Below are positions 25,163 to 49,757 of a stretch of DNA of 64,000 nt, piece after piece. The notes beneath the pieces are model-generated. The model ran no database searches and had not been told where the DNA came from. It saw only the letters and a list, made by a program, of their open reading frames with translations. Position numbers and translations under genes: made by a program. The DNA is from an uncultured bacterium (lineage in GTDB: Bacteria; Margulisbacteria; WOR-1; JAKLHX01), in contig CAZHHM010000001.1 in assembly GCA_964532225.1 (NCBI GenBank), positions 22,846 to 86,845 on the forward strand. Reading direction: 5' to 3'. Each line of letters opens with the position of its first letter. Position 1 is the first letter of the stretch.

Positions 25163-26398
25163 CTATCTTTTCGCCAGGAATCTAATGCTGCTGAGGTCAA
25201 GGTCGGCATTGCACTGGCCGATACCCATGATGTTTATCTTGTTCACGCCGTTGACATCTATGGTCAGGGTCTTTTTCTCTTTCGATGGCTTATAGCTCTT
25301 TTCTATAAGGACATTGTCGGAGCCGTCAAAATCGATGGCCAGTACGGTGAAAGAGCCGTTCCTCCAGCCGCCAGAGAAAGTGCCCGAATAATCTATCTCA
25401 AGCCTGCCGGAGTATTTTCTGCCGAGGTCGACAGTGATGCCGGCGTCGTTCTTATTGCTTATCTTCAGCGACAAGGCTCCGGAGGAGGCATTGACCACTG
25501 CCCCGTTAAAGCCGTTCCATCTGTATTTGCCGCTTAACAGGTCAAGGACAGGTCCTGCAGGCTTTGCGTCATGCGTCTTTACCTCAGGAGCGCTGTTGTC
25601 AGGGACGTTCGTCTTGGCTGTTTGAGGCGATACCGGCTTTTCGGTGCCCTGGGCCTTTTCTTCAGACGCCCCGATAACATTGGCTTGGGGGATAAATTCC
25701 ACATAATCGAACTTCACGGTGCCGCCGCTGCCTTTATAGACCCCGCCAAGCCAGCCCGTTACTTCCTGCGTGCCTGCCCAGTAGTTCATCATCAGCTGTC
25801 CAGGCCTGGTCGGGATGTCCTTGGTCGCCTTGTGCACCGGCTTGCCGTCGACATACCATTCGATATAATCCTTGGTCCACATGAACCCGTAAGAATGGAA
25901 GCCTTCTGTGGGGTCAAAAGGAAGCTCGATGATCTTTTCGTGTCCGCCCTTACCTTTTGTATAGTAGTTGAGCTGCAGCTGCGCCGAAGGCCCGATGAAC
26001 TCGATATCGATCTCATCGTGTGATTCAGTGCCCCATGAGCCGGTGTACGTGAAGAAAGTTCCTCCGACTATCCCGGGCCCTTTTGCCGCGACCATGCTGG
26101 TCTCATAGTAGCCGTACGAGAAATATTTGTCCGAGCGGTATTCGCCCGAAGCGTAAGGGAACCCGTCGCAGCCGGAAGGACAGCCCTTCGTGTCCAGTGT
26201 TATTACCATTTTGCCGCCTGAAAAACTGACGTTGTCAGGCTGAAAGTCGCAGTTAAAGACCCCTTTGTTCGACCAGTCGGCTTTTTGGAAATCCGGCCTG
26301 GCCGAGTCCATCGGGTCGGAGAGAGCGGGCTTGCCTTTTTTGCCTTTGCTAAGATTTTCAGGTCCGTCAGCCGCAGGCATAAATAATGAAATAAACAC
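25163..26398 (-). CDS. GH16 glycoside hydrolase (lichenase/laminarinase-type beta-glucanase) with extra C-terminal ~150-aa domain; no signal peptide
   Basis: Catalytic motif ESHDEIDIEFIG (E-I-D-I-E, Bacillus lichenase-type, no beta-bulge) and WTKDYIEWYVDG. GTG start 6 nt after AGGAGA; alternative ATG at 26380. Confidence 0.82.
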   Translation of the reverse strand: MFISLFMPAADGPENLSKGKKGKPALSDPMDSARPDFQKADWSNKGVFNCDFQPDNVSFSGGKMVITLDTKGCPSGCDGFPYASGEYRSDKYFSYGYYETSMVAAKGPGIVGGTFFTYTGSWGTESHDEIDIEFIGPSAQLQLNYYTKGKGGHEKIIELPFDPTEGFHSYGFMWTKDYIEWYVDGKPVHKATKDIPTRPGQLMMNYWAGTQEVTGWLGGVYKGSGGTVKFDYVEFIPQANVIGASEEKAQGTEKPVSPQTAKTNVPDNSAPEVKTHDAKPAGPVLDLLSGKYRWNGFNGAVVNASSGALSLKISNKNDAGITVDLGRKYSGRLEIDYSGTFSGGWRNGSFTVLAIDFDGSDNVLIEKSYKPSKEKKTLTIDVNGVNKINIMGIGQCNADLDLSSIRFLAKR

Positions 26399-32400: not shown

Positions 32401-34219
32401 TTTCTGACAGCATCCCGAATAGCCGGTCAAATTCCGGTTCCTCCAGGAAATATCTTGTTCCGCTGGCCTGGATCTTTTTAAGGTACGCGAAAATGTCACG
32501 CACTTCTTTCATTACCTCGTCCTCATCTTGCAGGAAAACATCTCCGATGGTGCCGGTGGGCGTTCGTTTGTACATGTTCCTGAAAGACCTGACGGAGCTT
32601 TCGGAAAGGTCCGCTATCAGACCGCTGTTGTCGATAGCCCTTGAAAGAATAAGACTTGACCATACGTGGTCCCTAAGACCGTCATCACACGGCAGCTCGT
32701 CTTTGCTCGCGGTCCTCAGCAGTGCCCTGAGATGGTCTTTTTTTGTTTCAAATCCTGACAGCACCTTGTTCTTTTCGTCCAGAATCCCCGCGGCTTTAAG
32801 GTACCTGAAAAATGTGTAGCGGTTGTAATAGTCATACAGTATCTCTTTGCCAAGGGATTCCACTTGAGCGTCGGAGAAATATCCGGCAGGCTGATAATAA
32901 GAGAACAGATATGTTTCGGCGTCAACGCAGTGCCCGACCGCCGTGGTCAGAGCGGAGACCTTTCCTTTGGTGTCCAGCGCGTCATTGCCCGAATAGTTGA
33001 AGTTCGCCCTTGCAAGGTCAAGGTAGAGGCTGGCCTTGAGCCAAGGGTTCGTTGTAAGCATCTTGTCATGTTTCTGGTCGAAGAAAGACGTAACTTTTAT
33101 CCCGTCTATGACAGGGGATTCCTTGTCGTTCAATAGTTTGGTGAAGAAAGTCTTGGCTTCCGTTGCCTGGGCCGGCGACGGATCGTCAACATCGAGCAGG
33201 TCAAGCTCTTTCTCAAAGCCCTCTATCCCGATCAATTCCGCCTCCAGGAGAAGGAATGTTTTCGGGAGGTCCATTTTGACCCTCAGATCAGCGAAAAGCG
33301 GCTTGCAATGGGCAACAAAGGCGTTTATCAGCTTCGCGCGCTTGAACGGGTCGTTATGCTCCTTAGAATACAGCGCCGCAAGGTCTCTCTCTTTTTTGTC
33401 TTTTTGGTCCATCGTCAGGCCCCTCAACTCATCGTTGCCGGCGTAATACCTGCCGACCATGGACCGGGACTTTGAGAAAGCCTGCGCCCTGTTGTCGTTG
33501 CCCGACATTTCCGAATAGATCCTGAAAAGCATTGTCTCGGCCAGCAGAAGAGCGTCCTTTGCTTCGGCAAGAAGCTGCTTTATCCTTTTTTTGTTGTCCG
33601 GGTCGGATAGCTGGACATATCTGGCGTATCCCTTGCACGCTCTGGCCAGATGTATATACATGCTTACGGGGAACCAGGGAGAGGCGCTTTGATACTTGGT
33701 ATAAGGCCCGAAATCAGCGGGCTTATTCCTCTCCTTGTTCTTCGGTACTGTCATCTCTATAGTTTCGAAAGCGCAGTCCATTATCCTTACGCCAAAACGC
33801 TCGGCCCTGACAGAGAGCATCCTCTTCACGTTCTCATAAGCCAGTTCGAACATTTTCGGGTCGTCCTCGGCGGCCGTTAGGAGGTCCTGTATCTGTTGGT
33901 TAGGGCCGGACTTTGAAGGGGTCGATACGCCAAGAGGCCTTGCGACCAGATGGTCCTGTAACGCGAACTGTGAAATGATGGCCTGGAAATCAAGCCTTTG
34001 TTCGTACTTCCTCGGGTTAGAAAGGTCGATCCCGTAGGCCGTGCTGACATCCCCTTCATAGAAATCTTTTTCTATCGCGTTGATCTCATTTAGAAGGCTG
34101 TATGCCCGCGCAAAGACACGGCTGCCGTTCTCTGCCGGTTTCGGGTCATTTCCTTTTCCCGGCTTTTCCTGCGGGAAAGCCTGGAAGTCGGCCCCGACCT
34201 TTCTAATAATATTGAACAT
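26477..34219 (-). CDS. Giant hypothetical protein (2580 aa): long alpha-helical N-terminal ~2000 aa plus beta-strand-rich C-terminal ~500 aa; no signal peptide
   Basis: Single uninterrupted ORF. C-terminal alternating-hydrophobic strands (ITVKHEGFGSTFDFGKFTVGGGYSRTV, LQINGQYRFSKNMSVNAEFGAQA). Carries one copy of the shared NGYLDGSGRVTRKF module. Confidence 0.65.
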   Translation of the reverse strand: MFNIIRKVGADFQAFPQEKPGKGNDPKPAENGSRVFARAYSLLNEINAIEKDFYEGDVSTAYGIDLSNPRKYEQRLDFQAIISQFALQDHLVARPLGVSTPSKSGPNQQIQDLLTAAEDDPKMFELAYENVKRMLSVRAERFGVRIMDCAFETIEMTVPKNKERNKPADFGPYTKYQSASPWFPVSMYIHLARACKGYARYVQLSDPDNKKRIKQLLAEAKDALLLAETMLFRIYSEMSGNDNRAQAFSKSRSMVGRYYAGNDELRGLTMDQKDKKERDLAALYSKEHNDPFKRAKLINAFVAHCKPLFADLRVKMDLPKTFLLLEAELIGIEGFEKELDLLDVDDPSPAQATEAKTFFTKLLNDKESPVIDGIKVTSFFDQKHDKMLTTNPWLKASLYLDLARANFNYSGNDALDTKGKVSALTTAVGHCVDAETYLFSYYQPAGYFSDAQVESLGKEILYDYYNRYTFFRYLKAAGILDEKNKVLSGFETKKDHLRALLRTASKDELPCDDGLRDHVWSSLILSRAIDNSGLIADLSESSVRSFRNMYKRTPTGTIGDVFLQDEDEVMKEVRDIFAYLKKIQASGTRYFLEEPEFDRLFGMLSETYGSDIGKNGKMSRLAVAAGNRQISFQTLSEIFASLSADQKAQKSLANLYMSIEFEMMQSNAQLYMIAREAEAEGKKPPVPSEVYLKALLASKDNIDKAKGLTSLIAAEYARINQKMMQVLSDVYLNMGIFESKEWIDSNPTPESQRKPEILGDALKHISMSLEYSSQVIITAPESLVNKKTLVEARARIWLANLVSLCKPYELKASLENGSLSFFGGLLAGKVNITLKDLDDLGDDKKAVWAGLVREGFIDSFGKVTDKFYQRLGNSIPFGESFFGTGLGTSDDILVLKLILRNHDLALAEESESYFGRLPQKVKDKKFVIPDVAAVYKLKGQIVLEKNLASYDTEDLNSAIADLRKARSLFESLRLPRRSYIEASIAETMLSVSEAQLALASSSFNYNDYDASKQKAADALSTLKEAVRLLDNVPENDKTKLYLKKKSCLILANILSRNSATSELAGKIYMKLLGEKVSLSDSDRTMLNNVIGQPVESLAGAFDFVELIEKTPYIKRTDSDMYFQAVLGKGNYYVSREEIDDREILLAARSFIEVISGPLPETFDPHNRTIKKYAAFGLAEALTRSKEPSLYGLGRSIFASLLKGRDADITTEIGIVSDVSPLKEAMPSGIDPGRIVDQLNSVSSLSDDNERLFVIKAYKGIGQAFEMDMYSAAEANDPGYTKLYASAADHYTRFFGGRENDLTATVSKVAGNMAATTIPAEATATAEICMHLLKMGSVAASQETSETRRRTVLNETLKANNAFGALLDAKLGSVGHYLRNDDKKQYLFMQLMRSDSFLLSSQVSADIWLMDKNIFSRRADADRQLELSKQYLGMARTEFDTITKNMFNLNALPEGGITKLLTDRAYPRAYGEVISRAGLHDCRTRYFSSLELVNLDRRFEEFNSILSDIGPVTGAGYLLNYDMAEALSLKARITEGFETVATNFEAVATYGQAEIFSKIGYDQWAGILIDQAKSYTSYVQKRIIKEEQVSSDFDALSTYISNLNRVLSAASIKDATRALAYEALGDIYLIFAPYFYDHNVTVAGLEDIDSPESSNAQAGRLFESALLCMPEDHQKVNDIKAKVIVTLINSGDIEKAQSEMDKLFSVGAKVGPETFEPLFSNDPAASAIKLSLDLKDNGYLDGSGRVTRKFFSLSSPADLKLSDEFSSERKDIYSYLSLAGIGNTNYITVVKLLNSAARIQSIDRKKSKAIQIRDNVKLLLDMFRRHNIPFDSFELDIDQARDYAEDDNFEKAEAIYASILSDPETRGKLKDNLRKLAEIEYRAKKAFEEGNLLRARKEAAALDARYKELTRAEELADPYIFFMRAYDSGLFNLASGRTFEAYKDYMSLRKYGANWWLDSQIRATTPLRISYLPSGNLVDAKLSLPYLSAGVQTASNSDIWKTAGSPTTNSLKLNLAGNIDLSVGGVDLNWQPSYSLDRMNIQIPGNPITVKHEGFGSTFDFGKFTVGGGYSRTVDGYNPKNDEERLQINGQYRFSKNMSVNAEFGAQAKAMYGETLLHSQPYNLSLGFTGAQRFNDYFSGTLKGKVSVGRHDNSIPYYYWVVTHQEDYIPPKDDGIWVRNILGQAPSQYPVYFTQDVSVPKWDRPNEDPQTFWNKFYFIPEKKSTGTGENLIWHLGATITTNIKTVDIPIAHPPEVNEDITTQINLKTMRKATYAKLGPSGGVIYSSDAFSVETPLDTFPEASLLSSIDLSQMTPIEATDDLYIEDTNAPEISITANSWETKVTVIGKNSNEDPFPLYYIRTVYERDEQGLVKKTIYFKDLNKGEDERVISAGGTQKALRRNLQTDISTDISGSLKYEDSNFNLALSLFYKNYQRLGSSMFLLGDNPDEMPDKAQGAFGGTFSAEWRVPSSWLPRSTYASLFGSASFLSGRIDSQNTVLYRAEYGNMGKPWLLDFGNMYIYTEVGGRLGYGASRFNVYLDASWMWNNGESFTDKKLNWDFLPYDQRMGGFKASLNFGIPIN

Positions 34220-34229: not shown

Positions 34230-36899
34230 CTATTCCATGGAGTTCAGCATGGATAATACCCCGACCCTGACCTCCATATTATCGGACTCGTTGGACAGGA
34301 CGATCACTTCCCTTATCCCCTTGATTATGTTCTTAGCCTTTATCCTGCTGCTTTCGTTGGATGACTCGTTCAGCAGAAGTCTGGCGTACTCCATGCCTAT
34401 CTGATAATAGGCAAGTCTTTCTTCCCATTTGCCGCCGCTGTAGAAATCCGCCTCGGAGTCCACTTTTATCTGTATTATAGTATCGTAAGCCTTCTCCATC
34501 GATTTCATTGCTTCGCGGACCGCGCTGTTCCTGTTTTCCGTGGAATTCAAAAGGCTTGCGGTCGCGAGCTTTAGTTGTGCCTCAAGCTGATATGATTGTG
34601 CCTGGAACAGCCAGAAGTTCTTTAGCTTGAACTGCTCGCTGGAAAGACCCTGTGTCGTGTACATAACTCCCTTGGCGAAATCTTTGAGGTTCAATATACC
34701 TTGAATATCTTTTATGAGAGCAGCGACCTTTTCTCTTGTGCTGTCTATGCTCTGCTTGGCAAAGACCGGATAAGAGTTCTTTATGCCATCACTTGACCAT
34801 GAATATATCTCGATGAGCTGGAGCATATGCCTGATATACAGCACTTCGGCCCTGATGGCGTTAAAGTTATCCCTGTACTTTGGCATCCAACCTGATTCCT
34901 TGAGACCGAACCAGCTGTCAAGCTTATCATCGACAACGGAATTGGAATACCGGTTGAAACCGGACGTGCAGTTCTTCAGGAGCTGATCCATATAGTCCAT
35001 GTCCGACCTTCTGAGCATGAAGCTCCTGTCATAGGACGGGACGCTCGCGATCATGACTATTATCTTCATTATCTGCAGGCTGTACCTTACCTTATAGCCA
35101 TACTCTTTTTCCTGAAGCTGTGAGAAAGCCCTCTCGAGCATGCCTTTTGCTTTCCATAAAAGCGCCACGGCATTTTTTGTGTCCTTTTTCTGGATGAACT
35201 CATTGATCTGGGCCATCATTACGTCTGAAGCAAGAATGACGGTCTCGTCGTAAGATTCCGGCCTTGCCCCGGATGTTGCCTTTAAGTAACCATTTTTCCT
35301 GCCGACATCCTCGAGAGGGCCGAGAGCTTCTTCGGCTGTCTTTATCGCTTTTTCGTACTGTCTGTCCTGAAAATATGCGCCGACAAGCTGATACTGGCCT
35401 TTTAATTTCGGGTCCCTGAAGCGGAAGCTCATCCTCCATCCGCCAAGATGTTCTATGTCTTTGGCGATATCCTCTTTTTCTTTGAACTTCATCCTAACTA
35501 TCACAACTCGGTCAAGAATGGTGCAGGTCTTGTGTTTCTCATCTCCGGTGAGAGTTGCAAGGCTTTTGTCGGCAACAAATTCTGCCCTTTTTCCGGAAAA
35601 ATGGGACAACAATCTGCCTTTTTTGTCAATATACTCGGAACGGATCAAGGCCTCCCAGATAGCAGCGCCTCTTTTTTCACCAAAGGTCCTGATGAACAGG
35701 CCTTTATTGACATATCCGATGTTCTTTTTCATCCACTCAAGGTCCAGGTCGACCTCGGGCGCTTCTTTGGGAACAATGACCGACCTTGTGCCTGAAAGCA
35801 CGGTCTTGATGTCCGTGCTGATGGCAGGGGAGACCGCAGCGAAGGCCTCTTTCAGGGCCTTCAGTGAAGAGGCGTCCATACCGTAGTCCTTATACGCTCC
35901 GCCTTCCTGTTTTGACAGGTTGAAAATAAAGAAACCGCTCAAGCCTTGTTCCCTGAAGTAACTGACGCTTTCCTTAAGGAACCTGGGCTTGAAGCCCGCA
36001 GGATCGTTCTTCTCCCTGTCGCATGAGAACTCGCCGATATAGATAGGTTTGTTGAACTGCCTTACCCTTGATATTGTAGGACCGAACAGCTCCGATGGGG
36101 ATCTGTACCGGCCCCCGTAGTCCTTAGTGTTGTAACCGTCAACCGAAACAAAATCCACCACATCGGCGCCCGGATAAAGCGAGGCTTCATTGCCGAAGTC
36201 GATGTTCACGTTATAGCCGAAAGTGATATTGCACCCGCCGGCCTCTCTCATGACGCGGACAACATGCCTGAAAGCCTTTTTAAACACTTCCGGGTCGTTC
36301 TTAGCTTCGATCGCCCATGGATAGGTCATTCCCATATTAGCCTCGTGGAACAGGATGACCTCGACAGGAACGCCTGCCTTTGCTGCTCCGACAGCAAAGT
36401 TCCTGATAAGGTGATCGAACTTTCCTTCGGCGATATCCTTCAAAGTAAAGGACCTGTCGTTTTCTCCGCCAAAGCTCCACGGCTCAAGCTTGATGCACAG
36501 CACTCCGCCCCTTGAGGCCATCATTTTTGCCTTTTCTGCAGGGAAGTCCAGGCCCAGAGAGAAAGGCTGGAACAGCAGCAGCTTATCAAGCTTCTGGCCT
36601 GTTGCCGATTCGTACTTGCCAATCGCGGCAATGAACTGATCGGTGCTTAGCTGAATGTCGCCAAGGAAAGCTCCGTTATAAAGTCCGTTGCTCACCACCT
36701 TGCGGCATTCGACCTGGATCTTTTGGGACTCCTGGGCAGGTTTTATCTGGCCGTTGCCCTTGCCGTTCTCGTCATTCTGGTCGATAAGCTGATCGGTCTC
36801 GTAGGGTCTCCGGCCGAGATCGTCAGCGATCTGCCTTTCCTTAAGGTCCGATAAGGACAGGGAATTTACTGCTCCCGCATTCACTTTATTTATCTGCAT
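34230..36899 (-). CDS. GH26-like (clan GH-A) glycoside hydrolase domain protein with a long uncharacterised alpha-helical C-terminal region (889 aa); no signal peptide
   Basis: ILFHEANMGMTYPW (cf. GH26 HEMN acid/base motif) and PIYIGEFSC (nucleophile-like xIGE). The N-terminal DENGKGNGQIK loop resembles the N-termini of the 924- and 331-aa proteins. Confidence 0.55.
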   Translation of the reverse strand: MQINKVNAGAVNSLSLSDLKERQIADDLGRRPYETDQLIDQNDENGKGNGQIKPAQESQKIQVECRKVVSNGLYNGAFLGDIQLSTDQFIAAIGKYESATGQKLDKLLLFQPFSLGLDFPAEKAKMMASRGGVLCIKLEPWSFGGENDRSFTLKDIAEGKFDHLIRNFAVGAAKAGVPVEVILFHEANMGMTYPWAIEAKNDPEVFKKAFRHVVRVMREAGGCNITFGYNVNIDFGNEASLYPGADVVDFVSVDGYNTKDYGGRYRSPSELFGPTISRVRQFNKPIYIGEFSCDREKNDPAGFKPRFLKESVSYFREQGLSGFFIFNLSKQEGGAYKDYGMDASSLKALKEAFAAVSPAISTDIKTVLSGTRSVIVPKEAPEVDLDLEWMKKNIGYVNKGLFIRTFGEKRGAAIWEALIRSEYIDKKGRLLSHFSGKRAEFVADKSLATLTGDEKHKTCTILDRVVIVRMKFKEKEDIAKDIEHLGGWRMSFRFRDPKLKGQYQLVGAYFQDRQYEKAIKTAEEALGPLEDVGRKNGYLKATSGARPESYDETVILASDVMMAQINEFIQKKDTKNAVALLWKAKGMLERAFSQLQEKEYGYKVRYSLQIMKIIVMIASVPSYDRSFMLRRSDMDYMDQLLKNCTSGFNRYSNSVVDDKLDSWFGLKESGWMPKYRDNFNAIRAEVLYIRHMLQLIEIYSWSSDGIKNSYPVFAKQSIDSTREKVAALIKDIQGILNLKDFAKGVMYTTQGLSSEQFKLKNFWLFQAQSYQLEAQLKLATASLLNSTENRNSAVREAMKSMEKAYDTIIQIKVDSEADFYSGGKWEERLAYYQIGMEYARLLLNESSNESSRIKAKNIIKGIREVIVLSNESDNMEVRVGVLSMLNSME

Positions 36900-36909: not shown

Positions 36910-39900
36910 TTATTCGACCTTTATATTTAACGTTTTCATCAGGTTCGAGGCCGTTTCTATCACGATATGCTCTTGCGTTTCCTGCATCAGCTTCTTTATC
37001 GCCATCCTTGCGTTCGCGTCGTTAGGCGAAGCCTTCAGCGTTTCAATGCTCCTTATGGCTATGGTCATCTCAATTTGAGTATACAGCTCCACAAGAAGGT
37101 TCGCCTCATCCCTCCAGGCGTTCTGGAGGCTAATTGACGTGGCTCCCTTTGAATTTATAGCTCCAAGCTTATATAGGGTCGCCTTAAGCGAGTCCCTCAT
37201 TTGATAAAGCCGGTCATAGCCCAGCGTGTCCCTGCCGGCGGCGAGCTCTTCTTTAACGCTCGCATAGTTTTCAAAATCTGCGGTAAGCTGCTCATCCCTC
37301 ATTAACCCGAGGAGCAGCTCATAGACCTCTCTGGTGTGAGCTGCCAGCTCTTTCGGCAGAACGAACTTCTCAGGTATCGATGAAGGTGATAGCCAAGCAC
37401 CGTTCAGGAGCGTTTCGCGGATGTTGTATTCGTGGTTCGATACCATATTCTTGAACTCTTGGGTGACAGTGAAGGCCGTCTTTTTTTCATCCAAAGGAGA
37501 AATAAGCCTTAACGTCTCCAGGCTGGACGTGATGCCTTCTACAACCGAAGAGATACCGTCTTTCAAGGCCTTTGAAGGAGCTTTTGACGGATCTTGAGCC
37601 GCGGATGATTCCACCGACCGATTGCGAACGCTTTTGTCCTCGGTAAGTTTCCTGACGGACGGCAGCTCTTCAATGAACCTGTTCTCGATCGTGCCAAGTT
37701 TCGTCGATGACCTTTGTTTGGCAACTGGCAGACCCTCTCTCTTTTGCAGTGCTTTTGTTTTCATGAGCACAGCAGACTGGTAGCCGGAGAACAGAAGGTT
37801 TATTCCCATTCCTAATCCAGCCAAAGTGCCAAGCTGGTCAAAACCTCCCAGGAGCAGCGATGCCATCGATACCCCTGAAGTTGCCAGGGTGAAGCCTAGG
37901 AGCTTGTTTACCCATTGTTTGTACTCCCTGGGAACAAGAGAGCTGGCCCCGGCGCTCGTCAGCATGAAAGTTCCCATCTGGTTCTGCTCGACATACTGCC
38001 AGTTGGCAGACTTGAAATAACCTGCAAGGAAACCGATCTCCTTCGCGGGATTATCCCATAAGCCGGTCCCCAGCACACCGAAGCCGAGAGAGTTCAATTG
38101 AAGCTTGTAATTCATTGTGGCCGAAGCTGTCTTCGCGGCCCAGGTAGGGATGAACAAAGGTATATCCACAGGGAAAGACAAAATATTCCCCATAGAACCG
38201 TTGTAAACCGGCAGGGAACCAAGTTCTATCATCTTTGCCCAGGCCCATTTGTACCAGGTACGTCCGGCAGTTATCTCCCACATCGCCTCAAGGCTGGCGA
38301 AATAGAAGGGATCAAAGCTGGCCTTAGGGTTAAGGCCTTTAACAAGGTCTTTGGCGATCAGCTTGAACGGCTGCACGAACAGCGTTTCGCTGAATATGTA
38401 CCTTACGGCGTTCTGTACCTTGTACTTGTCAAAGGTCTTTTCTGCCGCCATTATGGCGACCATCTCTTTGATCACATGCATCTTCACTCCGAGCATCCAC
38501 GCTACCATTTCCATCTGGGTGTCCTCGGAAACGCCGACGCCCCAGAACTGACCACCGTAGTTCGACATCTTCTTGAAGTTGTCGCTGTTGGTCTCCATTA
38601 TGTCGGCGAACAGAGGATTGAACAGGAACTCCGCGGACATCATGTGCGTCCTTCCGCTCTGTATGCCTCTGAAGGCCCTGATAGATTTTGCCCTGTTCAA
38701 ACCGAAGTGCTCGCCGAATGCCTTTATCGTGCTGTACATGGCGTTCACCTGCAGGCCGTAGAAGTACGGGTCCCTGGCATATTCGCCCGATATCTCGCCT
38801 ACGTTGCCGAACCTTGTCTGCGGGCCGATAACGGATTTTATTATCCCTTCGATCGCCTGAGAGAACCCGCCTTTATTCTCTTTAAGTATCGCAAAAAGAT
38901 CTCCGATCTCTTCTTCGGTGAGGTCCATCCTGTTGTTCGGGTTGTCCTTGTTCCACGTCTCGATTATCTGCTTAAGCTGGACCACGTTGACCCATTTTAT
39001 CCTTTGGGTCTCTCCAAGGTTCTTTACAAGTCCGTTAGATTCCAGCATTTCCCATACATTGGGATGAGATGACAACAATACCTCTTTGTTGATCTTCTTT
39101 TCGTTGAGCTCCTTGTAGATCTCGCGCAATCTCTCGGGGGTGAGCTCGATCCTGCTGTTCCTGTTCTCTTCTTTTTTGTTCCATTCTTTGATCCAGGTCT
39201 CAAGAGACGCGACAGAAACTACTCTGGCTTTGTCCAGCTCCCAGTGATCGTTGGTTATCTCCGACAAGTTCTTTTCTACAAGATCGCGGGTGGTCTGGTC
39301 TATCCTTGAAAGGTCAATATTGTCCGCTCCCAGGTCAAGCGCCTCTTTATTCGGGAGAGATTTTGATACGGGGACCCATTTATTGCCGATCTTAACTGCA
39401 GATGTGAACAGCTGCGGAGAGACCTTTATTTTACCTTCCGGTAGCTCGGTCCCCTGCGGAAGCTTTATCTCATAGGTGTTCACCTTGTGCACAACAAGGC
39501 AAAGTCTGCCGTTGTGATAGGTATCTATTACAGGGTTATAAGTGTCGGTCGCATCGTCCCTTATGGAGGGGTCGCTCTGATATATGTCGCTAAGCCCTTT
39601 GACGCCCATGTCCTTGTTGTCAAGAAGTGACCTGCCGAAATTATCGGTAAATAATCCCTGTCCCAGTTCAAGCTTTGCCTCCTGTCCATCGGGGACGCCT
39701 TCCGGAGCGAACCTTATGGTGACGCTCTTATCGGGATTTACCCTTACCGAGCGTATCCATCCGAGGTCCGGTATGCTTTCTATTATTTTGGCCTCGGCCT
39801 CGTTCGAGATATTATAAACATAGGCCGATCTGTCATGCTCAAGCCCGTTCTGTTCGAGCCTTCTTTCAATTACAAGCAGCCGGTCGGGAGCAGACCCTCT

Positions 39901-42900
39901 TCTCATTTCAAGAGTGGCCGACACATGTTTTGACGCGTCCAGGGTGACCACAGGGGACAGCAATGTCCCTGTTATTCCCTTGCCGGGCGCCTGTCTAAAG
40001 TAATTGCCCAGATCGATAACGGGTCCTGCGGTGCTTGATCCGTCCTCTCCGAACACTGTTACAAGGCCAAGAGCGGAGCCTTTCCGGACCTCTTTTGCCT
40101 CAGTGCTTTTTTCCGGTCTGACGGGATAGAATATTCCGCCGTCAATGAACGCTTTTCCCGAGTTGTCCACTTCGGTTATCCTGTCGCCTTCTTTGATGCC
40201 TTCGAACCAGGCAGCAGGGATAGGGATGGAAACGCCCCTGGGCAGACATACGCCGTTAATGACTATTTCCTTGCCTTCATTCCTGGTCTCGATATTGTAA
40301 TAACCTCCGCCCACTTCGACATGAGACCTTTCGTTATTGTCGTTAAGCACCTCTTTGGACCTGCCGGTCTTGTTGAACAGCATGGGCCTGTCCCTGTCCT
40401 CACACCGCACAAAACCGAGCGTTCCGTCCTCATAACGTATCCTGTACCATGAAATATCGCCTTCTCTGTCAGGGTTTTGTTTGAAAGCATTGGCCTGCAG
40501 CGTTACTTTTCCGTCCTCTCTGGGCAGTCCGAGAGTCTCAAGATATCTCGGGAAAGCGCTTTCAGGGACCTCCATCTGATAGTTTCCGACGAGCTTAAGT
40601 ACAAGATCGCCTTTAAGATAGAACTTCATCTTTGTGGTAGCGTACAGGTTCTTCCAAAGAGGGCTGTCCTTCTCCGCTTCAGGCACGGCAATTTCCACGG
40701 ACCTTGAGCCGTCGCTGACCGTCATGACCGTCTTGCCTTCATTCCATTTGACCTCGAGCTCTACCTCTTTGTCCGAAAGATTGAAGAAATAAACTATCTT
40801 TTCCCTTATCTTTCCGTACTCCGGTATCCCGAAAGTATTTATAAGGGGATTGACGACCGAGCCGGAATCATTGCCTAAGCCCTTTCCAGAAATGAACTGG
40901 GTCTCCGAAAGCTCGGAATAGTTGAGGATGAGCCTGCGCCTGACCTCTCCTGTCTGCTTGTCGGTTTCGGTGATGACATCAACATCTCTCAGCCTTGCCC
41001 AGTCAACGAGACCGTTCCTCTGGGTCACTATTGCAGACCTGTCGACCTCATATGGGATCATCCTTTGAGCTCCGCCTTCGGGAGAATAGGCAAGCTCGAT
41101 ATTGCCGTTGAGCACATCGACCGAGCTTATCGCTTTTTCGGGATACGGGTTGTTGAAGGTGTAGCGCTTGCCCACAGGGAACCTGTAAACAAGAAGGAGC
41201 GCCTTGTTCTCGCGCTCCCTTTCTAGGAGCGCCTGCTGCTTGGAATAAGTAAAGACCTGTATGTCGTTCTTGTCCATCATGACCGCAGAATAGAAATCAG
41301 GGAAGCATATCGCAAGAGGAGAGGTGATATCGATATGTTCCATCAACGCTTTGTCTGAAGTTTCCGAGCCGGCGAAAGCGAACCTCCTGCCGATCTCATC
41401 TTTGGTTGCATGGGCTTTCTCTTTTGTCGCTTTTTCAAGTATGCCGTTGACCTCGGATTCAATTCTCCTTTGCTCGGCCTCATCTTTCGATATCTCGGCT
41501 CCCAGCCTGAAGGCGTCCTTTTTTGTGTAGAACTTTGATTCGACCAGGCCGTCCTTAGTTATCCAGCCGTTGCTTACGAGGGCATTCCAGACCTTGTCGG
41601 CGTTCTCCCCGAACATGGACCGGTCCACTTTTCCTCTTGTATAGAATCCCGCTATCTCGGGCTGCTTAAGCTGGTCCTTGTCGCTCACCCAGAAATAATC
41701 GCCTGCCGCGATCTTCGTTTCCCTGCCGTTGATCACTATCCTCTTTATGCCGGTGCTGCCTTTTTCAAATCCTGTCGTCTTTGACGGGTCGTTATCTGTT
41801 CTGGCGACATAGTCAGAAGTAGAAAGATAGGCTTCGTTCTCCTTTTGAAGGTCCTGCAGCACCCTTTCCGCCTTTATCCAGATATACTTGGAGGCCTCCA
41901 TGGTGCCGGGTTTTGCTCCATACCTGAACTCAGGGTTCTGTACCCTTGTCCATGTGCCGGTCACCCAGTCCACGGTAGGATAGTTCTTGTTCTCGACCTT
42001 CCAGAGCTTATATACCGTAAGCCCCCTGAAAAGGCCTATAGTGGCCACGTTCTCGACCTTCCTTACTTTCCAGTCATCGTGGTTCATTTCTTTTCTCGCG
42101 ATGAACGGATATGTGACGAAGTCAGGATCGAACCTCTTCATGAGGTTCTCATAATCGCGGTAAAAATCCGCTTCGGCTTGAGCGGTGTATGACCCTGAGA
42201 CCGCGAAAGAGCTCCGCGCCTTATCGCGCAGGGACCTGGCTAGAGACCTGTATTCGGACACTCTGGCATCCAGCTGCTCGAAGGCGGCGTTGAAGGCTTC
42301 TTCAGTATATTCCTCATACATCACAGCGAACAGCATCTGCACATACTCTCTCTGGCGGACGTCAGAGATCTCTTTTTTGGCCAGCTCCTCAACATTAATT
42401 TTGCTCTTTGGCCTTAGTTTTCCGGAAACCACATCAAAGAATATGGCAAGCTTTTCAGGCTTATTCAGCTCGGGAGCATTCGCAAGAACGGTCTCTTTGG
42501 AGAAAAGCTTCAGCTCCGGTTTTCCTTTGAATTTTCCATGTATGTCCTCTTGCAAAAATGCCTTAAGCTCCCCGCCCATATATGAGGCAAGCGATTCAAG
42601 GTTGGCGGCAAGGGCCTCAAATTTCTCTGATACTGACATATTTGCAAGGCCCTGTATCTCAAGCTTATTTGTGAGCGCTCTTTGTATATCGCTGATCCAT
42701 CTGAGGAACATCTTTTCTATTTTCACGTTCCCAAGGTCTGCCTGCGGTATCTTGTCAAGCATGTTTACAAAGCTTACATTGGGCTTGCCCATGAGAAGGG
42801 CAGTGAAGAGAGCTCCCTTGGTATGCTCCACGTTGCCTGTGTCCGGATTGATGAGCAGGACCTTTTTATCGTCTGAATATCGCTTGGTCTCCTGCCTGCC

Positions 42901-44484
42901 TATGATGTCCCTGCTCGGTGCCCTGAGCGAAGCCAAATGGCCGAGAGATGTGTTCATCGAATGGAAGGAGCCGTGTAATTCGCTGGCGAACAGCGTTAAG
43001 AAAGACGACCAGAATGTGCCGTAAAGGAACGCAGGCATCAGCGAACCCTCGGCGGCCCCGGCCAGGAGGGACAGCCCTGCTCCTCCGGCGAACCCGAGGT
43101 AGGGAAGCCTGGTCATAAAAGCGTCCCTTGAGGTCATCTTGAACCATTTTGAGGACTGCTCTTTTTCGGACCATTTCCAGCCCGGAAGCCATGATGAGGG
43201 CATGTTCCTAAGACCTACTGTTGCGCCCAGGGCGATAACAGGTAAAGCTATCGATAGCGGCGTCAGCCAGCTCAATGCGCTGGTCCCGCTCATCGCATTT
43301 TCAAAAAGCAGCCATGAAGAACCGCCGAAAAGAGTGGCCCTAGCGGCAAGATAGGTGCTTTCGGTGAACACGGCGCGCACGGCGGAGCCGGTCATTTTCC
43401 TCATCAGCCACCGTTCTCCGGGATTGGTCTGCCCTCCGTAAGAGCGGTCAAGCTCGTTGAGCTTATCGTTCTTCAGGTGACGGTAATATGCGTACAACCC
43501 GCCCATTAGACCGAACGTCGAGAAAGGCGATATGTCCTGGAACCCGTTCTGTATGTCGAAACCGTGGGACATAAGGGTGTTCCCGAATACTACCGAACCA
43601 GCAAGGACGGCCAAAGGACGGCCGTAGGTGGACAGGTATGAAGCGAACCTCTTTGCCGAACCTTCGGGAAGACGGTCAGCGAACCTGGCCGAGACCAGGG
43701 ACAATCCGCCGAATGCTGCAACTGCAGAGGTGAACAGATCAAAATTCAGGAGCGTGTTGGTCACCGCAAGTACGCCTGCCGTGCCCAGCGTCATTGAAAG
43801 CCCGAACTTGAAAGAGGTCTTTGTAACGGTCTTTGGCGAAAGCCACGACACCCCGAAGAACTCGTGGTTCCAGAAGCCTGAGGCTTTTGCCGTAGTATAG
43901 CTCAGAGCTTTCAGCGCGGTGTATTGTCTGGTGACCGGATTGTCGGCAGGGTCAAGCTCTATCTTTAATGACGCCTTAAGCTCTTCAAGTCTGCTTGGCC
44001 TGGTAAAGAGAGAGATGTCCCCGATGGTCAGCCCCGAGGCAGCGGCATCCTTACTTACTATCCCGGCAGATGCCAGGGACCCTGAGAACAGGCCGGGTTC
44101 GAGCTCTTTCTGGTTCATGATATTCTCGAACAATATTGTCCTGTCGGCGAACCCCATGAATTTGAGCGGAGAAAGAGCGCTTGCTATCCCCGAAAGATTG
44201 AACCTTGGCAGAACGGGATTGTCTTCAGGGCTGAGGTTTATCCCTTCAGTCCTCCAAAGAAGGTCAAGGCGTCTGCCGGTGACGGTCCGTGAGATATCGC
44301 CGATCCCCATCCGGTCGATAGGGGTGAGCTCGTTGGTTATACCGAAGCGGTAAAGGGTCTCATGGGAGATATTGCTATTTCTGATATTGTCCAGCAGGCG
44401 GGTGCGGTCGGCAAAGCCCAGGCCTATGCCGTGCCTTGCAGGGCCTCTGTCAACGCCTCTGGTAAAACTGCCTGTTCCTGTCAT
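36910..44484 (-). CDS. Giant hypothetical integral membrane protein (2524 aa): N-terminal cluster of TM helices, ~1700-aa soluble middle region, C-terminal TM helix cluster
   Basis: Hydrophobic helices near the N-terminus (GLSMTLGTAGVLAVTNTLL, ALSWLTPLSIALPVIALGATVGL, LPYLGFAGGAGLSLLAGAAEG) and near the C-terminus (NSLGFGVLGTGLW, LLGFTLATSGVSMASLLLGGF). SD GAGGGGG 6 nt upstream of the ATG. First gene after a 220-bp AT-rich gap. Confidence 0.65.
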   Translation of the reverse strand: MTGTGSFTRGVDRGPARHGIGLGFADRTRLLDNIRNSNISHETLYRFGITNELTPIDRMGIGDISRTVTGRRLDLLWRTEGINLSPEDNPVLPRFNLSGIASALSPLKFMGFADRTILFENIMNQKELEPGLFSGSLASAGIVSKDAAASGLTIGDISLFTRPSRLEELKASLKIELDPADNPVTRQYTALKALSYTTAKASGFWNHEFFGVSWLSPKTVTKTSFKFGLSMTLGTAGVLAVTNTLLNFDLFTSAVAAFGGLSLVSARFADRLPEGSAKRFASYLSTYGRPLAVLAGSVVFGNTLMSHGFDIQNGFQDISPFSTFGLMGGLYAYYRHLKNDKLNELDRSYGGQTNPGERWLMRKMTGSAVRAVFTESTYLAARATLFGGSSWLLFENAMSGTSALSWLTPLSIALPVIALGATVGLRNMPSSWLPGWKWSEKEQSSKWFKMTSRDAFMTRLPYLGFAGGAGLSLLAGAAEGSLMPAFLYGTFWSSFLTLFASELHGSFHSMNTSLGHLASLRAPSRDIIGRQETKRYSDDKKVLLINPDTGNVEHTKGALFTALLMGKPNVSFVNMLDKIPQADLGNVKIEKMFLRWISDIQRALTNKLEIQGLANMSVSEKFEALAANLESLASYMGGELKAFLQEDIHGKFKGKPELKLFSKETVLANAPELNKPEKLAIFFDVVSGKLRPKSKINVEELAKKEISDVRQREYVQMLFAVMYEEYTEEAFNAAFEQLDARVSEYRSLARSLRDKARSSFAVSGSYTAQAEADFYRDYENLMKRFDPDFVTYPFIARKEMNHDDWKVRKVENVATIGLFRGLTVYKLWKVENKNYPTVDWVTGTWTRVQNPEFRYGAKPGTMEASKYIWIKAERVLQDLQKENEAYLSTSDYVARTDNDPSKTTGFEKGSTGIKRIVINGRETKIAAGDYFWVSDKDQLKQPEIAGFYTRGKVDRSMFGENADKVWNALVSNGWITKDGLVESKFYTKKDAFRLGAEISKDEAEQRRIESEVNGILEKATKEKAHATKDEIGRRFAFAGSETSDKALMEHIDITSPLAICFPDFYSAVMMDKNDIQVFTYSKQQALLERERENKALLLVYRFPVGKRYTFNNPYPEKAISSVDVLNGNIELAYSPEGGAQRMIPYEVDRSAIVTQRNGLVDWARLRDVDVITETDKQTGEVRRRLILNYSELSETQFISGKGLGNDSGSVVNPLINTFGIPEYGKIREKIVYFFNLSDKEVELEVKWNEGKTVMTVSDGSRSVEIAVPEAEKDSPLWKNLYATTKMKFYLKGDLVLKLVGNYQMEVPESAFPRYLETLGLPREDGKVTLQANAFKQNPDREGDISWYRIRYEDGTLGFVRCEDRDRPMLFNKTGRSKEVLNDNNERSHVEVGGGYYNIETRNEGKEIVINGVCLPRGVSIPIPAAWFEGIKEGDRITEVDNSGKAFIDGGIFYPVRPEKSTEAKEVRKGSALGLVTVFGEDGSSTAGPVIDLGNYFRQAPGKGITGTLLSPVVTLDASKHVSATLEMRRGSAPDRLLVIERRLEQNGLEHDRSAYVYNISNEAEAKIIESIPDLGWIRSVRVNPDKSVTIRFAPEGVPDGQEAKLELGQGLFTDNFGRSLLDNKDMGVKGLSDIYQSDPSIRDDATDTYNPVIDTYHNGRLCLVVHKVNTYEIKLPQGTELPEGKIKVSPQLFTSAVKIGNKWVPVSKSLPNKEALDLGADNIDLSRIDQTTRDLVEKNLSEITNDHWELDKARVVSVASLETWIKEWNKKEENRNSRIELTPERLREIYKELNEKKINKEVLLSSHPNVWEMLESNGLVKNLGETQRIKWVNVVQLKQIIETWNKDNPNNRMDLTEEEIGDLFAILKENKGGFSQAIEGIIKSVIGPQTRFGNVGEISGEYARDPYFYGLQVNAMYSTIKAFGEHFGLNRAKSIRAFRGIQSGRTHMMSAEFLFNPLFADIMETNSDNFKKMSNYGGQFWGVGVSEDTQMEMVAWMLGVKMHVIKEMVAIMAAEKTFDKYKVQNAVRYIFSETLFVQPFKLIAKDLVKGLNPKASFDPFYFASLEAMWEITAGRTWYKWAWAKMIELGSLPVYNGSMGNILSFPVDIPLFIPTWAAKTASATMNYKLQLNSLGFGVLGTGLWDNPAKEIGFLAGYFKSANWQYVEQNQMGTFMLTSAGASSLVPREYKQWVNKLLGFTLATSGVSMASLLLGGFDQLGTLAGLGMGINLLFSGYQSAVLMKTKALQKREGLPVAKQRSSTKLGTIENRFIEELPSVRKLTEDKSVRNRSVESSAAQDPSKAPSKALKDGISSVVEGITSSLETLRLISPLDEKKTAFTVTQEFKNMVSNHEYNIRETLLNGAWLSPSSIPEKFVLPKELAAHTREVYELLLGLMRDEQLTADFENYASVKEELAAGRDTLGYDRLYQMRDSLKATLYKLGAINSKGATSISLQNAWRDEANLLVELYTQIEMTIAIRSIETLKASPNDANARMAIKKLMQETQEHIVIETASNLMKTLNIKVE

Positions 44485-44611
44485 TGCCAGCCCCCTCTAT
44501 ATATATATCGATAAGAACCATCCGGAATCCCAGTCCCGGAAACCCCCGTTCCGTGACTTCTTATATATAACGGGTTTAACTATTAAAAACTTGCATAAGA
44601 TTTACAATTCC

Positions 44612-44644
44612 TTAATAGTCGAACCTTAACATCTCTTCGTTCAT
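44612..44644 (-). other. Possible 10-codon upstream ORF (MNEEMLRFDY) with a perfect SD GGAGGGAGG, in the 5' leader of the giant operon
   Basis: Minus-strand reading ggagggaggtATGAACGAAGAGATGTTAAGGTTCGACTATTAA, 128 nt upstream of the 2524-aa gene ATG. Confidence 0.2.
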
Positions 44645-44705
44645 ACCTCCCTCCGATTTCACGGAATATTAGGGTGTCCCGAAGATTTTTCAAGGCAAGC
44701 ACGAA

Positions 44706-45701: not shown

Positions 45702-45716
45702 GATATTCTCCTTTGC

Positions 45717-49702: not shown

Positions 49703-49723
49703 TGGTCCGCTCCTTTCTTAGTT

Positions 49724-49740
49724 CCTTACTGCAGTAAAGG
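49724..49740. promoter_or_regulatory. Near-perfect palindrome CCTTACTGCAGTAAAGG in the divergent intergenic region (candidate operator)
   Basis: Read directly; centred on CTGCAG, between the small ORF / operon start and the MBL-fold gene. Confidence 0.3.
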
Positions 49741-49757
49741 AGCAATTTACCCGCCGT

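What the first reader, a model, noticed from the sequence alone, without database searches (positions are those of the whole stretch)
36910..44484. 2524-aa polytopic membrane protein with N- and C-terminal TM bundles flanking a ~1700-aa soluble region
The topology is two clusters of hydrophobic helices separated by a very large hydrophilic domain. This is reminiscent of large processive polysaccharide synthases/translocases (for example the FKS-type glucan synthase architecture) or of giant envelope-spanning scaffolds. It sits with GH16/GH17/GH26-like hydrolases.

I could not find canonical GT2 (D,D,D,QxxRW) or other glycosyltransferase motifs, so the function is open. It is the first gene after the only long leader in the operon (44485-44705), which suggests it is a major regulated entry point.
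Basis: inference. Interest (0 to 1): 0.65.

Follow-up and report, generated by a model that had tools for sequence, protein, structure and literature searches.

The report
Giant divergent cellulose-synthase-like glucan synthase
This 2524-residue membrane protein belongs to an unannotated family from uncultivated bacteria whose conserved C-terminal core looks like a very divergent cellulose-synthase-type sugar-polymerising and exporting machine, sitting in a gene cluster of beta-1,3-glucan-modifying enzymes.

Summary
The ORF (36910-44484, minus strand, 2524 aa) is real. It has about eight N-terminal and two to four C-terminal membrane helices around a roughly 1560-aa hydrophilic region.

Pfam, NCBIfam, PHROGs and PDB sequence searches find nothing. 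An exhaustive HMMER search finds 53 relatives. They are either fused (1.9-2.7 kaa) or split into two adjacent genes, and they keep the same gene neighbourhood.

Neighbouring genes encode GH16, GH17 and GH26-lichenase domains. Related loci also carry UDP-glucose-supply genes.

Best reading: a giant, highly divergent GT2-like processive beta-glucan synthase/translocase.

Caveats: profile-profile statistics are not significant, and the nucleotide-binding (DxD) half is only tentatively located, about 1300 residues upstream.

The FKS, scaffold and tape-measure readings are not.

The parts
36910..44484 (-). Whole ORF, 2524 aa (P0001)
   Evidence: 53 relatives in the exhaustive HMMER search.
44485..44705 (-). 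221-nt upstream intergenic region. It holds a sigma-70-like site (TTGAAA-16-TAATAT, 44693..44666), a terminator-like hairpin (44540..44521) and the RBS.
   Evidence: No Rfam family and fold z=-1.45.
43807..44484 (-). Residues 1-226: N-terminal cytoplasmic region with two copies of the family motif G-F/Y-A-D/N-R-x-x-L (residues 23-36 and 110-123).
   Evidence: There is no signal peptide. The motif is shared with the N-termini of downstream partner proteins in other loci.
42982..43806 (-). Residues 227-501: N-terminal membrane bundle, about 8 helices arranged as four hairpins.
   Evidence: Hydropathy. Loop charge pattern: outer loops 1-8 aa with 0 K/R, inner loops with 4-8 K/R.
42730..42981 (-). 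Residues 502-585: invariant motifs ELHGxxHSxNT, D526xxG, NPxTGxxEH and D577. This is the tentative nucleotide-binding half of a GT-A domain (DDG / HAKAGN / DxD equivalents).
   Evidence: hhalign against BcsA 268-375 gives P=0.016, with 0 of 40 column shuffles reaching the score. Pfam and the PDB profile search do not support it.
40300..42729 (-). Residues 586-1395: conserved cytoplasmic region of unknown fold. Motifs include VRKVENVAT, GTWTRVxNP, LSTSxxVDNxP and MMDKNDI. In split-gene relatives the N-module protein ends at about residue 1372-1395.
   Evidence: Split point.
39358..40230 (-). Residues 1419-1709: beta-rich conserved domain, which is the start of the C-module.
   Evidence: AF2 model 1 gives pLDDT 70-90 here. 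Foldseek finds no PDB match.
38860..39342 (-). Residues 1715-1875: helical, charged, lineage-specific insertion that is absent from the closest relatives.
   Evidence: Comparison with P0007 and the family consensus. AF2 confidence is low here.
38335..38832 (-). Residues 1885-2050: GT2-like catalytic half. Motifs: PQ1889xR, R1904-D1905xxFYG, NRAK1933, SGR1945, K1972, S-E1987-D1988, AE2015K and Q2024NxxR2028-Y2029.
37735..38292 (-). Residues 2065-2250: interface and transmembrane helices, with invariant W2077-Y2078, P-V-D2107 and a gating-loop-like Q2169xxxF2173xxT2176. They occupy the positions of BcsA TM5-8, IF3 and FxVTxK.
   Evidence: AF2 model 2 gives pLDDT 83-97 here.
36913..37734 (-). Residues 2251-2524: C-terminal helical cytoplasmic domain, in the position that the PilZ domain occupies in BcsA. 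It is conserved in the family.
34230..36899 (-). 889-aa partner gene: an N-terminal GH26 lichenase-like domain plus a C-terminal domain (450-880). A protein with this C-terminal domain follows the giant gene in most of the related loci read.
26477..34219 (-). 2580-aa downstream gene. A large protein (1000-2700 aa) occupies this position in related loci, but no sequence similarity to this one was detected.
25163..26398 (-). GH16 protein (411 aa) without a signal peptide.
   Evidence: GH16 recurs in L002, L004 and L013.
21312..24269 (-). 985-aa protein with a GH17 beta-1,3-glucanosyltransferase-like domain (residues 614-883) and a C-terminal T9SS-type/FlgD-Ig beta-sandwich.

Best explanation
The gene encodes a giant, extremely divergent relative of the membrane-embedded processive family-2 glycosyltransferases (the cellulose-synthase superfamily). 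It is the core of a conserved beta-glucan synthesis and remodelling cluster.

Proposed topology (inferred from hydropathy and loop charge):
- The protein is anchored by about eight N-terminal helices and four C-terminal helices.
- The N-terminus, the roughly 1560-aa central region and the C-terminal helical domain all face the cytoplasm.

Proposed mechanism (inferred by analogy with BcsA):
- At the cytoplasmic mouth of the C-terminal helix bundle sits a GT2-like pocket.
- D1988 of the invariant S-E-D motif is the candidate catalytic base.
- Q2024, R2028 and Y2029 lie on an interface helix and would hold the acceptor end of the polymer.
- F2173/T2176 lie on a loop equivalent to the BcsA gating loop.
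- The enzyme would add sugar from a nucleotide sugar, probably UDP-glucose, to a growing beta-glucan and push it through its own channel.

The co-encoded GH17 transglycosylase, GH16 and GH26-lichenase-like enzymes would branch, trim or cyclise a beta-1,3- (or beta-1,3/1,4-) glucan.

What is shown and what is inferred:
- Shown: the family, its fused and split forms, its synteny, the invariant residues, the fold match and the glucan-related context.
- Inferred: catalysis, the substrate, the linkage, and the location of the nucleotide-binding half. That half is tentatively residues 502-585, about 1300 residues upstream, and sits on a separate polypeptide in the split-gene lineages.

For: (2) Pfam. 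Among 24,736 Pfam families scanned at E<=10 with 15 core segments, the only family hit by more than one member is a GT2 family. Glyco_tranf_2_3 is hit twice and Glyco_trans_2_3 once. The hits map to the SED-to-Q stretch and to the profile regions that hold the ED and QxxRW motifs.

(3) Motif order. The hhalign path against PDB-verified BcsA sequences is colinear:
- RDxYFYG with FYG
- FGLNRAK with FFCGS..RR
- SED with TED
- GxK with GWK
- AEK (AQP in divergent members) with (L)QPE
- QNxxRY with QRxRW
- FxLT with the FxVTxK gating loop
The model's secondary structure fits BcsA: ED at a helix N-terminus, then a strand, then the Q..RY helix, then the helix order IF, TM, TM, IF, loop, TM, TM.

(4) Conservation. 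E1987, D1988, R2028, Y2029, K1933, K1972, D1905, W2077 and Y2078 are invariant, and D2107, F2173 and T2176 are nearly so, in 36-41 sequences that are only 21-54% identical.

(5) Context.
- GH16, GH17 and GH26-lichenase domains are in the operon.
- Related loci carry a Glyco_transf_5-plus-UDPGP fusion protein (the UDPGP match is below Pfam's cut-off), an NTP_transferase, epimerases, a GT2 and GH16.
- GT2 plus GH17 is the known design of the NdvB-type bacterial beta-1,3-glucan synthases (PMC10237404).

(6) Topology. The positive-inside pattern puts the catalytic region in the cytoplasm, as in BcsA.
Against: - Sequence statistics do not establish homology. hhalign of the C-half against BcsA gives P=0.08-0.35 and z=0.4-2.5 against column shuffles, and the reversed template scores as high.
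- The Pfam GT2 hits are far below gathering thresholds (12-13 bits against 27).
- Foldseek E-values are above 1.
- No canonical DxD and no Rossmann-like half adjoins the core. The candidate N-half rests on a single hhalign result (P=0.016). It gets no support from Pfam or the PDB profile search, and no structure model was available for it.
- QxxRW is one residue longer here and ends in Y.
- The GH16, GH17, GH26 and LysM proteins lack signal peptides. This sits awkwardly with extracellular remodelling of an exported polymer.
- Several related loci encode GT-B-type enzymes that could be the true polymerase.
Confidence: 0.55

Rival explanations
1. GT2-derived pseudo-enzyme or translocon. The C-module keeps the cellulose-synthase channel architecture but has lost nucleotide-sugar binding. 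It only exports or scaffolds a glucan that is polymerised in the cytoplasm by soluble GT-B-type enzymes, and cytoplasmic GH16 and GH17 enzymes process it before export. This would resemble cyclic-glucan systems.
For: - No DxD or Rossmann half lies next to the core.
- Related loci encode Glyco_transf_5-containing and Epimerase_2-containing large proteins, which have a GT-B-type fold, together with UDPGP.
- The accessory hydrolases lack signal peptides and may act in the cytoplasm.
Against: - The residues equivalent to the catalytic base (ED) and the acceptor-binding Q..R(W/Y) motif are invariant across the whole family. A mere channel would not be expected to keep them.
- The window's own operon contains no recognisable GT-B gene.
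Confidence: 0.2
2. A new membrane machine unrelated to glycosyltransferases. It could be, for example, the platform of a dedicated secretion or assembly system for the signal-peptide-less operon proteins. On this reading the BcsA resemblance is a generic helical-bundle artefact of a medium-confidence model.
For: - hhalign and Foldseek are not significant.
- Operon proteins lack Sec signals, and three of them share an N-terminal motif (ISEAPK...GNGNGQID) that could be a targeting signal.
- The giant protein and its downstream partner share an N-terminal GFANR motif in other loci.
- Most of the protein (about 1900 aa) has no detectable similarity to anything.
Against: - The genomic context is consistently polysaccharide-related.
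Confidence: 0.17
3. An FKS-type (GT48) beta-1,3-glucan synthase homologue, as the first reader suggested by analogy.
For: - The overall layout is TM cluster, large cytoplasmic region, TM cluster.
- The Q-x3-R spacing resembles my recollection of the GT48 'QxLSR' motif. This is from memory and was not tested.
- The context is beta-1,3-glucan-related.
Against: - No Pfam Glucan_synthase hit appears even at E<=10.
Confidence: 0.04
4. A phage tape-measure or other mobile-element structural protein.
For: Only its great length and the absence of annotation.
Against: - No PHROG hit.
- No relative in 2.9 million viral contigs.
- The flanks are chromosomal housekeeping genes: SecDF, FtsK, NadE and YchF.
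- Synteny with glycan genes is conserved across lineages.
Confidence: 0.01

Closest known systems
Bacterial cellulose synthase BcsA (GT2; PDB 4p00, 9fmv) and plant CesA/CslF6
   Same: - Best structural matches of the conserved core.
- Same order of elements: FYG, (S/T)ED at a helix start, G-x-K, Q..R-aromatic on an interface helix, two TM helices, an amphipathic helix, an F-x-x-T loop, two TM helices, then a cytoplasmic C-terminal domain.
- The catalytic side is predicted to be cytoplasmic.
   Different: - About three times larger.
- No significant sequence similarity.
- QxxRW is replaced by QNxxRY.
- No adjacent DDG/DxD half. If that half exists, it lies about 1300 residues upstream, or on another polypeptide in split lineages.
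- Eight rather than four N-terminal TM helices.
- No PilZ domain and no BcsB partner.
NdvB-type bacterial beta-1,3-glucan synthases (BcsA-like GT2 fused to GH17; PMC10237404), curdlan synthase CrdS, and bacterial mixed-linkage glucan synthases (PMC10374906)
   Same: They pair a BcsA-like synthase with beta-1,3-glucan-acting GH17 chemistry. The likely UDP-glucose substrate is also the same.
   Different: Those enzymes are ordinary-sized canonical GT2 proteins that Pfam recognises. Here the GH17, GH16 and GH26 domains are on separate proteins, and the synthase candidate is unrecognisable by sequence.
Fungal FKS1 / plant callose synthase (GT48)
   Same: A large polytopic protein with a big cytoplasmic region between TM clusters, and a beta-1,3-glucan context.
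   Different: No Pfam or structural match to GT48. The soluble region here is much larger and mostly of unknown fold.
Cyclic beta-1,2-glucan synthase Cgs/ChvB (about 2800 aa; GT84 plus GH94; from my own knowledge)
   Same: A giant membrane-anchored, mostly cytoplasmic glucan factory that combines synthase and glycoside-hydrolase-like activities. Its accessory chemistry takes place in the cytoplasm.
   Different: No sequence similarity was detected to any Pfam family. The domain order is different.

Membership tests
GT2 membrane-embedded processive synthases (cellulose-synthase superfamily) | Fold of the catalytic C-half plus the channel-forming helices | tested here: met
GT2 membrane-embedded processive synthases (cellulose-synthase superfamily) | (T)ED catalytic-base motif at the N-terminus of a helix | tested here: met
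   V-S-E1987-D1988 has E and D invariant in 40 of 40 sequences. The AF2 helix 1987-1997 starts at ED. hhalign aligns it to BcsA TED.
GT2 membrane-embedded processive synthases (cellulose-synthase superfamily) | QxxRW motif on the interface helix | tested here: inconclusive
   The literal motif is absent. Q2024-N-x-x-R2028-Y2029 is present, with Q in 39 of 40 and RY in 40 of 40 sequences. It is one residue longer and has Y in place of W. It lies on helix 2018-2032, in the expected place.
GT2 membrane-embedded processive synthases (cellulose-synthase superfamily) | Nucleotide-binding half of the GT-A domain with D (DDG) and DxD motifs | tested here: inconclusive
   It does not adjoin the core. 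The candidate is residues 502-585 (D526, EH553-554, D577). hhalign against BcsA 268-375 gives P=0.016 and 0 of 40 shuffles reach the score. There is only a single Asp at the DxD position, and no Pfam or PDB-profile support.
GT2 membrane-embedded processive synthases (cellulose-synthase superfamily) | Significant sequence match to a GT2 profile (Pfam gathering score) | tested here: not met
   The window protein has no hit. Three relatives score 12-13 bits (E=0.08-0.18) against a cut-off of 27. hhalign is not significant.
GT2 membrane-embedded processive synthases (cellulose-synthase superfamily) | Gating loop FxVTxK before the last two TM helices | tested here: inconclusive
   An F2173-x-x-T2176 loop (each conserved in 40 of 41 sequences) sits between the amphipathic helix and the last TM pair. 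hhalign aligns it to FNVTAK. The K is not conserved.
GT2 membrane-embedded processive synthases (cellulose-synthase superfamily) | Nucleotide-sugar-dependent polymerisation coupled to translocation | not testable with these tools
   Needs biochemistry.
GT48 (FKS / callose synthase) | Match to the Glucan_synthase domain, or to the FKS1 structure | tested here: not met
Phage tape-measure proteins | PHROG or Pfam TMP family match, and a phage genomic context | tested here: not met
   No PHROG hit. No relatives in viral contigs. The context is chromosomal.
RND/MMPL and YhgE/Pip membrane proteins | Pfam family match | tested here: not met
   No hit for the window protein or for 13 long relatives.

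The most novel reading that the evidence does not exclude
This would be a previously unrecognised class of processive glycan synthase in which the GT-A catalytic domain is broken in two.
- The nucleotide-binding half sits directly after the N-terminal membrane bundle.
- The acceptor and catalytic half sits in front of the C-terminal channel helices.
- The two halves are separated by about 1300 residues of conserved domains of unknown fold.
- In many lineages the halves are encoded as two separate proteins that must assemble to form one active site.

Together with an obligatory partner protein and signal-peptide-less GH16, GH17 and GH26 enzymes, it would build a beta-1,3-glucan-type envelope or storage polymer in uncultivated bacteria such as Saganbacteria. 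Bacterial cell biology has not described such a polymer in these lineages.
Probability: 0.3. Interest if true: 0.85.

Novelty: new variant of a known kind. Interest (0 to 1): 0.72.

Why it matters
If correct, this is a family of about 2000-2700-residue proteins with no Pfam, NCBIfam or PDB sequence match and, in two targeted full-text searches, no publication that mentions it. It would extend the cellulose-synthase superfamily to a radically different architecture: fused or two-gene forms, a giant insertion and altered signature motifs.

It points to an undescribed beta-glucan biosynthetic system in uncultivated bacterial lineages. It also shows that sequence-profile annotation misses whole branches of polysaccharide synthases.

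It gives concrete, testable residues (D1988, R2028/Y2029, F2173/T2176, D526/D577). The natural split-gene variant allows a test of whether a GT-A site can be assembled from two polypeptides.

The roughly 1300 residues of conserved domains of unknown fold, and the obligatory partner protein, are further unknowns.

Tried and rejected
- **Direct annotation.** Pfam, NCBIfam and PHROGs on the protein gave nothing. phmmer and profile searches against PDB sequences gave nothing relevant.
- **Word-indexed homologue search.** It returned essentially only the query itself in all three tries. The exhaustive representative search was what revealed the family.
- **First structure model.** The model of residues 1390-2524 from a 16-sequence alignment was poor in the core (pLDDT 58). 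Its Foldseek search was uninformative.
- **Profile-profile comparison.** hhalign against BcsA, with and without the divergent subfamily and with N and C halves concatenated, never reached significance for the C half.
- **Pfam at E<=10.** It gave no GT2 signal on the N-half segments or on whole long relatives.
- **Leader RNA.** No Rfam family and no unusual stability.
- **Internal repeats and paralogy.** BLAST found no paralogy with the other giant gene. The 2580-aa neighbour has no detectable counterpart in related loci.
- **Organism.** The window's organism could not be identified. Its genome is not among the species representatives scanned, and the exact-protein look-up failed for the giant protein. 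The only named relative is a Ca. Saganbacteria MAG.
- **Rejected readings.** Tape-measure protein, RND/MMPL, YhgE/Pip, FKS/GT48 and envelope-spanning scaffold.
Full report
**Observation**

The ORF at 36910-44484 on the minus strand is real: an ATG start, 2524 codons and a GAGGGGG ribosome-binding site 7 nt upstream.

Hydropathy and charge-free-stretch analysis gives:
- Eight hydrophobic segments between residues 227 and 501.
- Two clearly hydrophobic segments at 2195-2241.
- Two further weaker helices at about 2080-2132, seen in the AlphaFold model.

The N-terminal segments form four hairpins. Their outer loops are 1-8 residues long with no Lys or Arg. Their inner loops carry 4-8 Lys/Arg. By the positive-inside rule, the N-terminus and the roughly 1560-residue central region face the cytoplasm. 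There is no signal peptide.

- A GH16 protein.
- An 889-aa protein whose N-terminal domain matches the C. thermocellum GH26 lichenase at E=5e-24.
- A 985-aa protein with a GH17 beta-1,3-glucanosyltransferase-like domain.

The window is chromosomal. SecD/SecF, FtsK, an iron ABC transporter, NadE, rubrerythrin and YchF flank the operon.

**No annotation, but a real family**

Pfam, NCBIfam, PHROGs and PDB sequence searches find nothing in the protein. The word-indexed protein search returned only the query itself.

A scan of species-representative genomes found one relative, on a 7-kb contig of a Candidatus Saganbacteria MAG. It is colinear over residues 257-2259 at 26-40% identity. There the gene is split into two ORFs with a stop codon, an AAGAGGA ribosome-binding site and a new ATG at the position of residue about 1395.

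The exhaustive HMMER search with residues 1326-2524 found 53 representative proteins, 32 of them below E=1e-30. Two architectures appear:
- Fused proteins of 1869-2708 aa.
- C-module proteins of about 820-930 aa.

Context look-ups and a metagenome scan show three things:
- The C-module gene is preceded directly by an N-module gene wherever the upstream sequence is available (six distinct loci).
- In most of the loci read, the fused or split gene is followed by a protein whose C-terminal domain resembles residues 450-880 of the 889-aa neighbour. For L003/L008 and L019 that similarity was not detected.
- One or more large proteins of 1000-2700 aa come next.

None of 13 long relatives has a Pfam hit at E<=0.01, apart from one marginal coiled-coil (Leu_zip) match at E=0.006. 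No relative occurs in 2.9 million viral contigs.

**The conserved core**

The best-conserved stretch is residues about 1880-2260. Across 36-41 sequences that are only 21-54% identical to the query, the following are invariant or nearly so:
- Q1889
- R1904-D1905-x-x-F-Y-G
- K1933
- G1944
- K1972
- V-S-E1987-D1988
- E2015
- Q2024-N-x-x-R2028-Y2029
- W2077-Y2078
- P-V-D2107
- Q2169-x3-F2173-x2-T2176

This is the signature of an active site, not of a scaffold.

**Structure**

A first AlphaFold model of residues 1390-2524 from 16 sequences was poor in the core, and its Foldseek search was uninformative. It did give a confident beta-rich domain at 1419-1709.

A second model of residues 1860-2300, from a 42-sequence alignment, reached pLDDT 72 and pTM 0.74, with pLDDT 83-97 over most of the membrane helices.

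Foldseek was not significant (E>1). Even so, CesA8, BcsA, CesA7 and CesA3 had the highest query-normalised TM-scores (0.26-0.29), with probabilities up to 0.77.

**Independent sequence hints**

I verified E. coli and R. sphaeroides BcsA segments against the PDB and ran hhalign locally. The scores are not significant for the C half (P=0.08-0.35, z=0.4-2.5 against column shuffles, reversed template as high).

The alignment path is nonetheless colinear over about 225 columns:
- R-D-x-Y-F-Y-G with (L/M)FYG
- FGLNRAKxxR with FFCGSxAVxRR
- GVSED with TVTED
- G-x-K with G-W/Y-K/T
- AEK with (Q)PE. The divergent subfamily has A-Q-P-N here.
- QNxxRY with QRxRW
- F-x-L-T with the gating loop F-x-V-T-x-K

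The model's secondary structure fits. ED starts a helix. A strand follows. Q..RY lies on the next helix. After that the order is two helices, an amphipathic pair, the F..T loop and two long hydrophobic helices. This matches the BcsA order TED, IF2, TM5-6, IF3, gating loop, TM7-8 (the BcsA order is from my own knowledge of 4HG6/4P00).

**The missing half**

A GT-A domain also needs a nucleotide-binding half with the DDG and DxD motifs. None adjoins the core. The domain directly upstream is beta-rich.

The stretch right after the last N-terminal TM helix (residues 502-585) carries invariant E502, H504, N511, D526, G529, N546-P547, T549-G550 and D577. hhalign aligns it to BcsA residues 268-375 with P=0.016, and none of 40 column shuffles reaches the score (z about 4.5). 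The alignment places:
- D526-x-x-G on DDGG
- E553-H554 on the EH of EHAKAGN
- D577 on the first Asp of DxD

I therefore treat as a hypothesis, not a finding, the idea of a GT-A domain split by about 1300 residues, and split between two polypeptides in many lineages.

**Context and likely product**

All three hydrolase-type domains in the operon belong to families that act on beta-1,3- or beta-1,3/1,4-glucans (GH16, GH17, GH26 lichenase type).

Related loci carry:
- GH16 and GH26-like genes.
- A Glyco_transf_5 protein fused to a UDP-glucose pyrophosphorylase-like domain (UDPGP match below Pfam's cut-off).
- A sugar-nucleotidyl transferase.
- An NAD epimerase.
- A GT2.
- Radical-SAM proteins.
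- Epimerase_2-containing proteins of about 805 aa.

A BcsA-like GT2 combined with GH17 is the known design of NdvB-type bacterial beta-1,3-glucan synthases (PMC10237404). A beta-glucan made from UDP-glucose is thus the most economical product. It is inferred, not shown.

**Puzzles**

- None of the operon's GH16, GH17, GH26 or LysM proteins has a signal peptide. Either they act in the cytoplasm, as in cyclic-glucan synthesis, or they leave the cell by an unknown route.
- Three of them share an N-terminal motif.
- In other loci the partner protein shares the giant protein's N-terminal G-F-A-N-R motif and has 1-3 TM segments or a lipoprotein signal.
- About 1900 of the 2524 residues remain of unknown fold.

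**Leader**

The 221-nt gap upstream is the longest among the well-supported operon genes. It has a sigma-70-like match and a terminator-like hairpin. No Rfam family matches it and its predicted stability is ordinary.

**Verdict**

The interpretation as a processive polysaccharide synthase/translocase is partly supported. The protein looks GT2/BcsA-like, not FKS-like, and it is not an envelope-spanning scaffold or a tape-measure protein.

I estimate these probabilities:
- About 0.75 that the core is a true remote homologue of GT2 synthases.
- About 0.55 for the full statement that it is an active beta-glucan synthase/translocase.
- About 0.3 for the split-GT-A reading.

It is best classed as a new variant of a known kind: an unannotated, giant and architecturally unusual branch of the cellulose-synthase superfamily.

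Noticed in passing
window 21312-26398, 34230-36899, 44706-49477 (minus strand): None of the operon's GH16, GH17-like, GH26-like, LysM or FlgD-Ig proteins has a recognisable Sec signal peptide or TM anchor. The 985-aa protein nevertheless ends in a T9SS-type sorting-domain-like beta-sandwich.
   Followed up: partly
window 49270-49477, 45500-45701, 36700-36899 (N-termini of the 924-, 331- and 889-aa proteins): The 924- and 331-aa proteins share an N-terminal sequence (M-x-S-x-x-ISEAPK...GNGNGQID; 38% identity over 68 aa). The 889-aa protein has a similar GKGNGQI element. This could be a shared targeting or docking module. The 924- and 331-aa proteins also share a C-terminal domain of about 200 aa.
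   Followed up: partly
window 26477-34219 (-): A second giant ORF (2580 aa) lies directly downstream. It has no Pfam, NCBIfam, PHROG or PDB match apart from a sub-threshold Porin_4 hit, no TM segments, and no detectable similarity to the large proteins in the same position in related loci.
   Followed up: partly
L001 4599-4607; L004 8332-8336; L009, L010, L011, L015, L016, L019: In many lineages the giant gene is two adjacent genes (an N-module of about 1000-1400 aa and a C-module of about 820-930 aa). The break falls at the equivalent of window residue about 1395. This is a natural fission/fusion polymorphism.
   Followed up: yes
window 44376-44418 and 44115-44157 (residues 23-36 and 110-123); L011 11792, L013 11775, L015 11560, L017 8429, L019 11584: An N-terminal motif (SPRLTxxYxxLGF-A-N/D-R-xxL) occurs twice in the window protein. 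In other loci it also opens the downstream partner protein, which there has 1-3 TM segments. In L010 the partner has a lipoprotein signal instead.
   Followed up: partly
window 38860-39342 (residues about 1715-1875): A lineage-specific, highly charged helical insertion appears to contain two similar units of about 60 aa (…ETWIKEWNKKEENRNSRIELTPERLREIYKELNEKK… and …IIETWNKDNPNNRMDLTEEEIGDLFAILKENK…). It is absent from the closest relatives.
   Followed up: no
window 44521-44540 (-): A terminator-like hairpin (7-bp stem followed by a T-rich tail) lies between the promoter-like site and the start codon of the giant gene. It could be an attenuator. No known riboswitch matched.
   Followed up: partly
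window 49668-50705 (-): The 345-aa ORF upstream of the operon is proline/serine-rich and of low complexity, has no family hit, and overlaps a plus-strand ORF. It is probably not a gene. If so, the 924-aa gene heads the operon, divergent from secD.
   Followed up: no
window 5589-9739 (-): Two further adjacent ORFs (892 and 491 aa) have no Pfam hit. They lie next to a radical-SAM gene at 4648-5595. Radical-SAM genes also recur next to the giant-gene cluster in L002 and L010.
   Followed up: no
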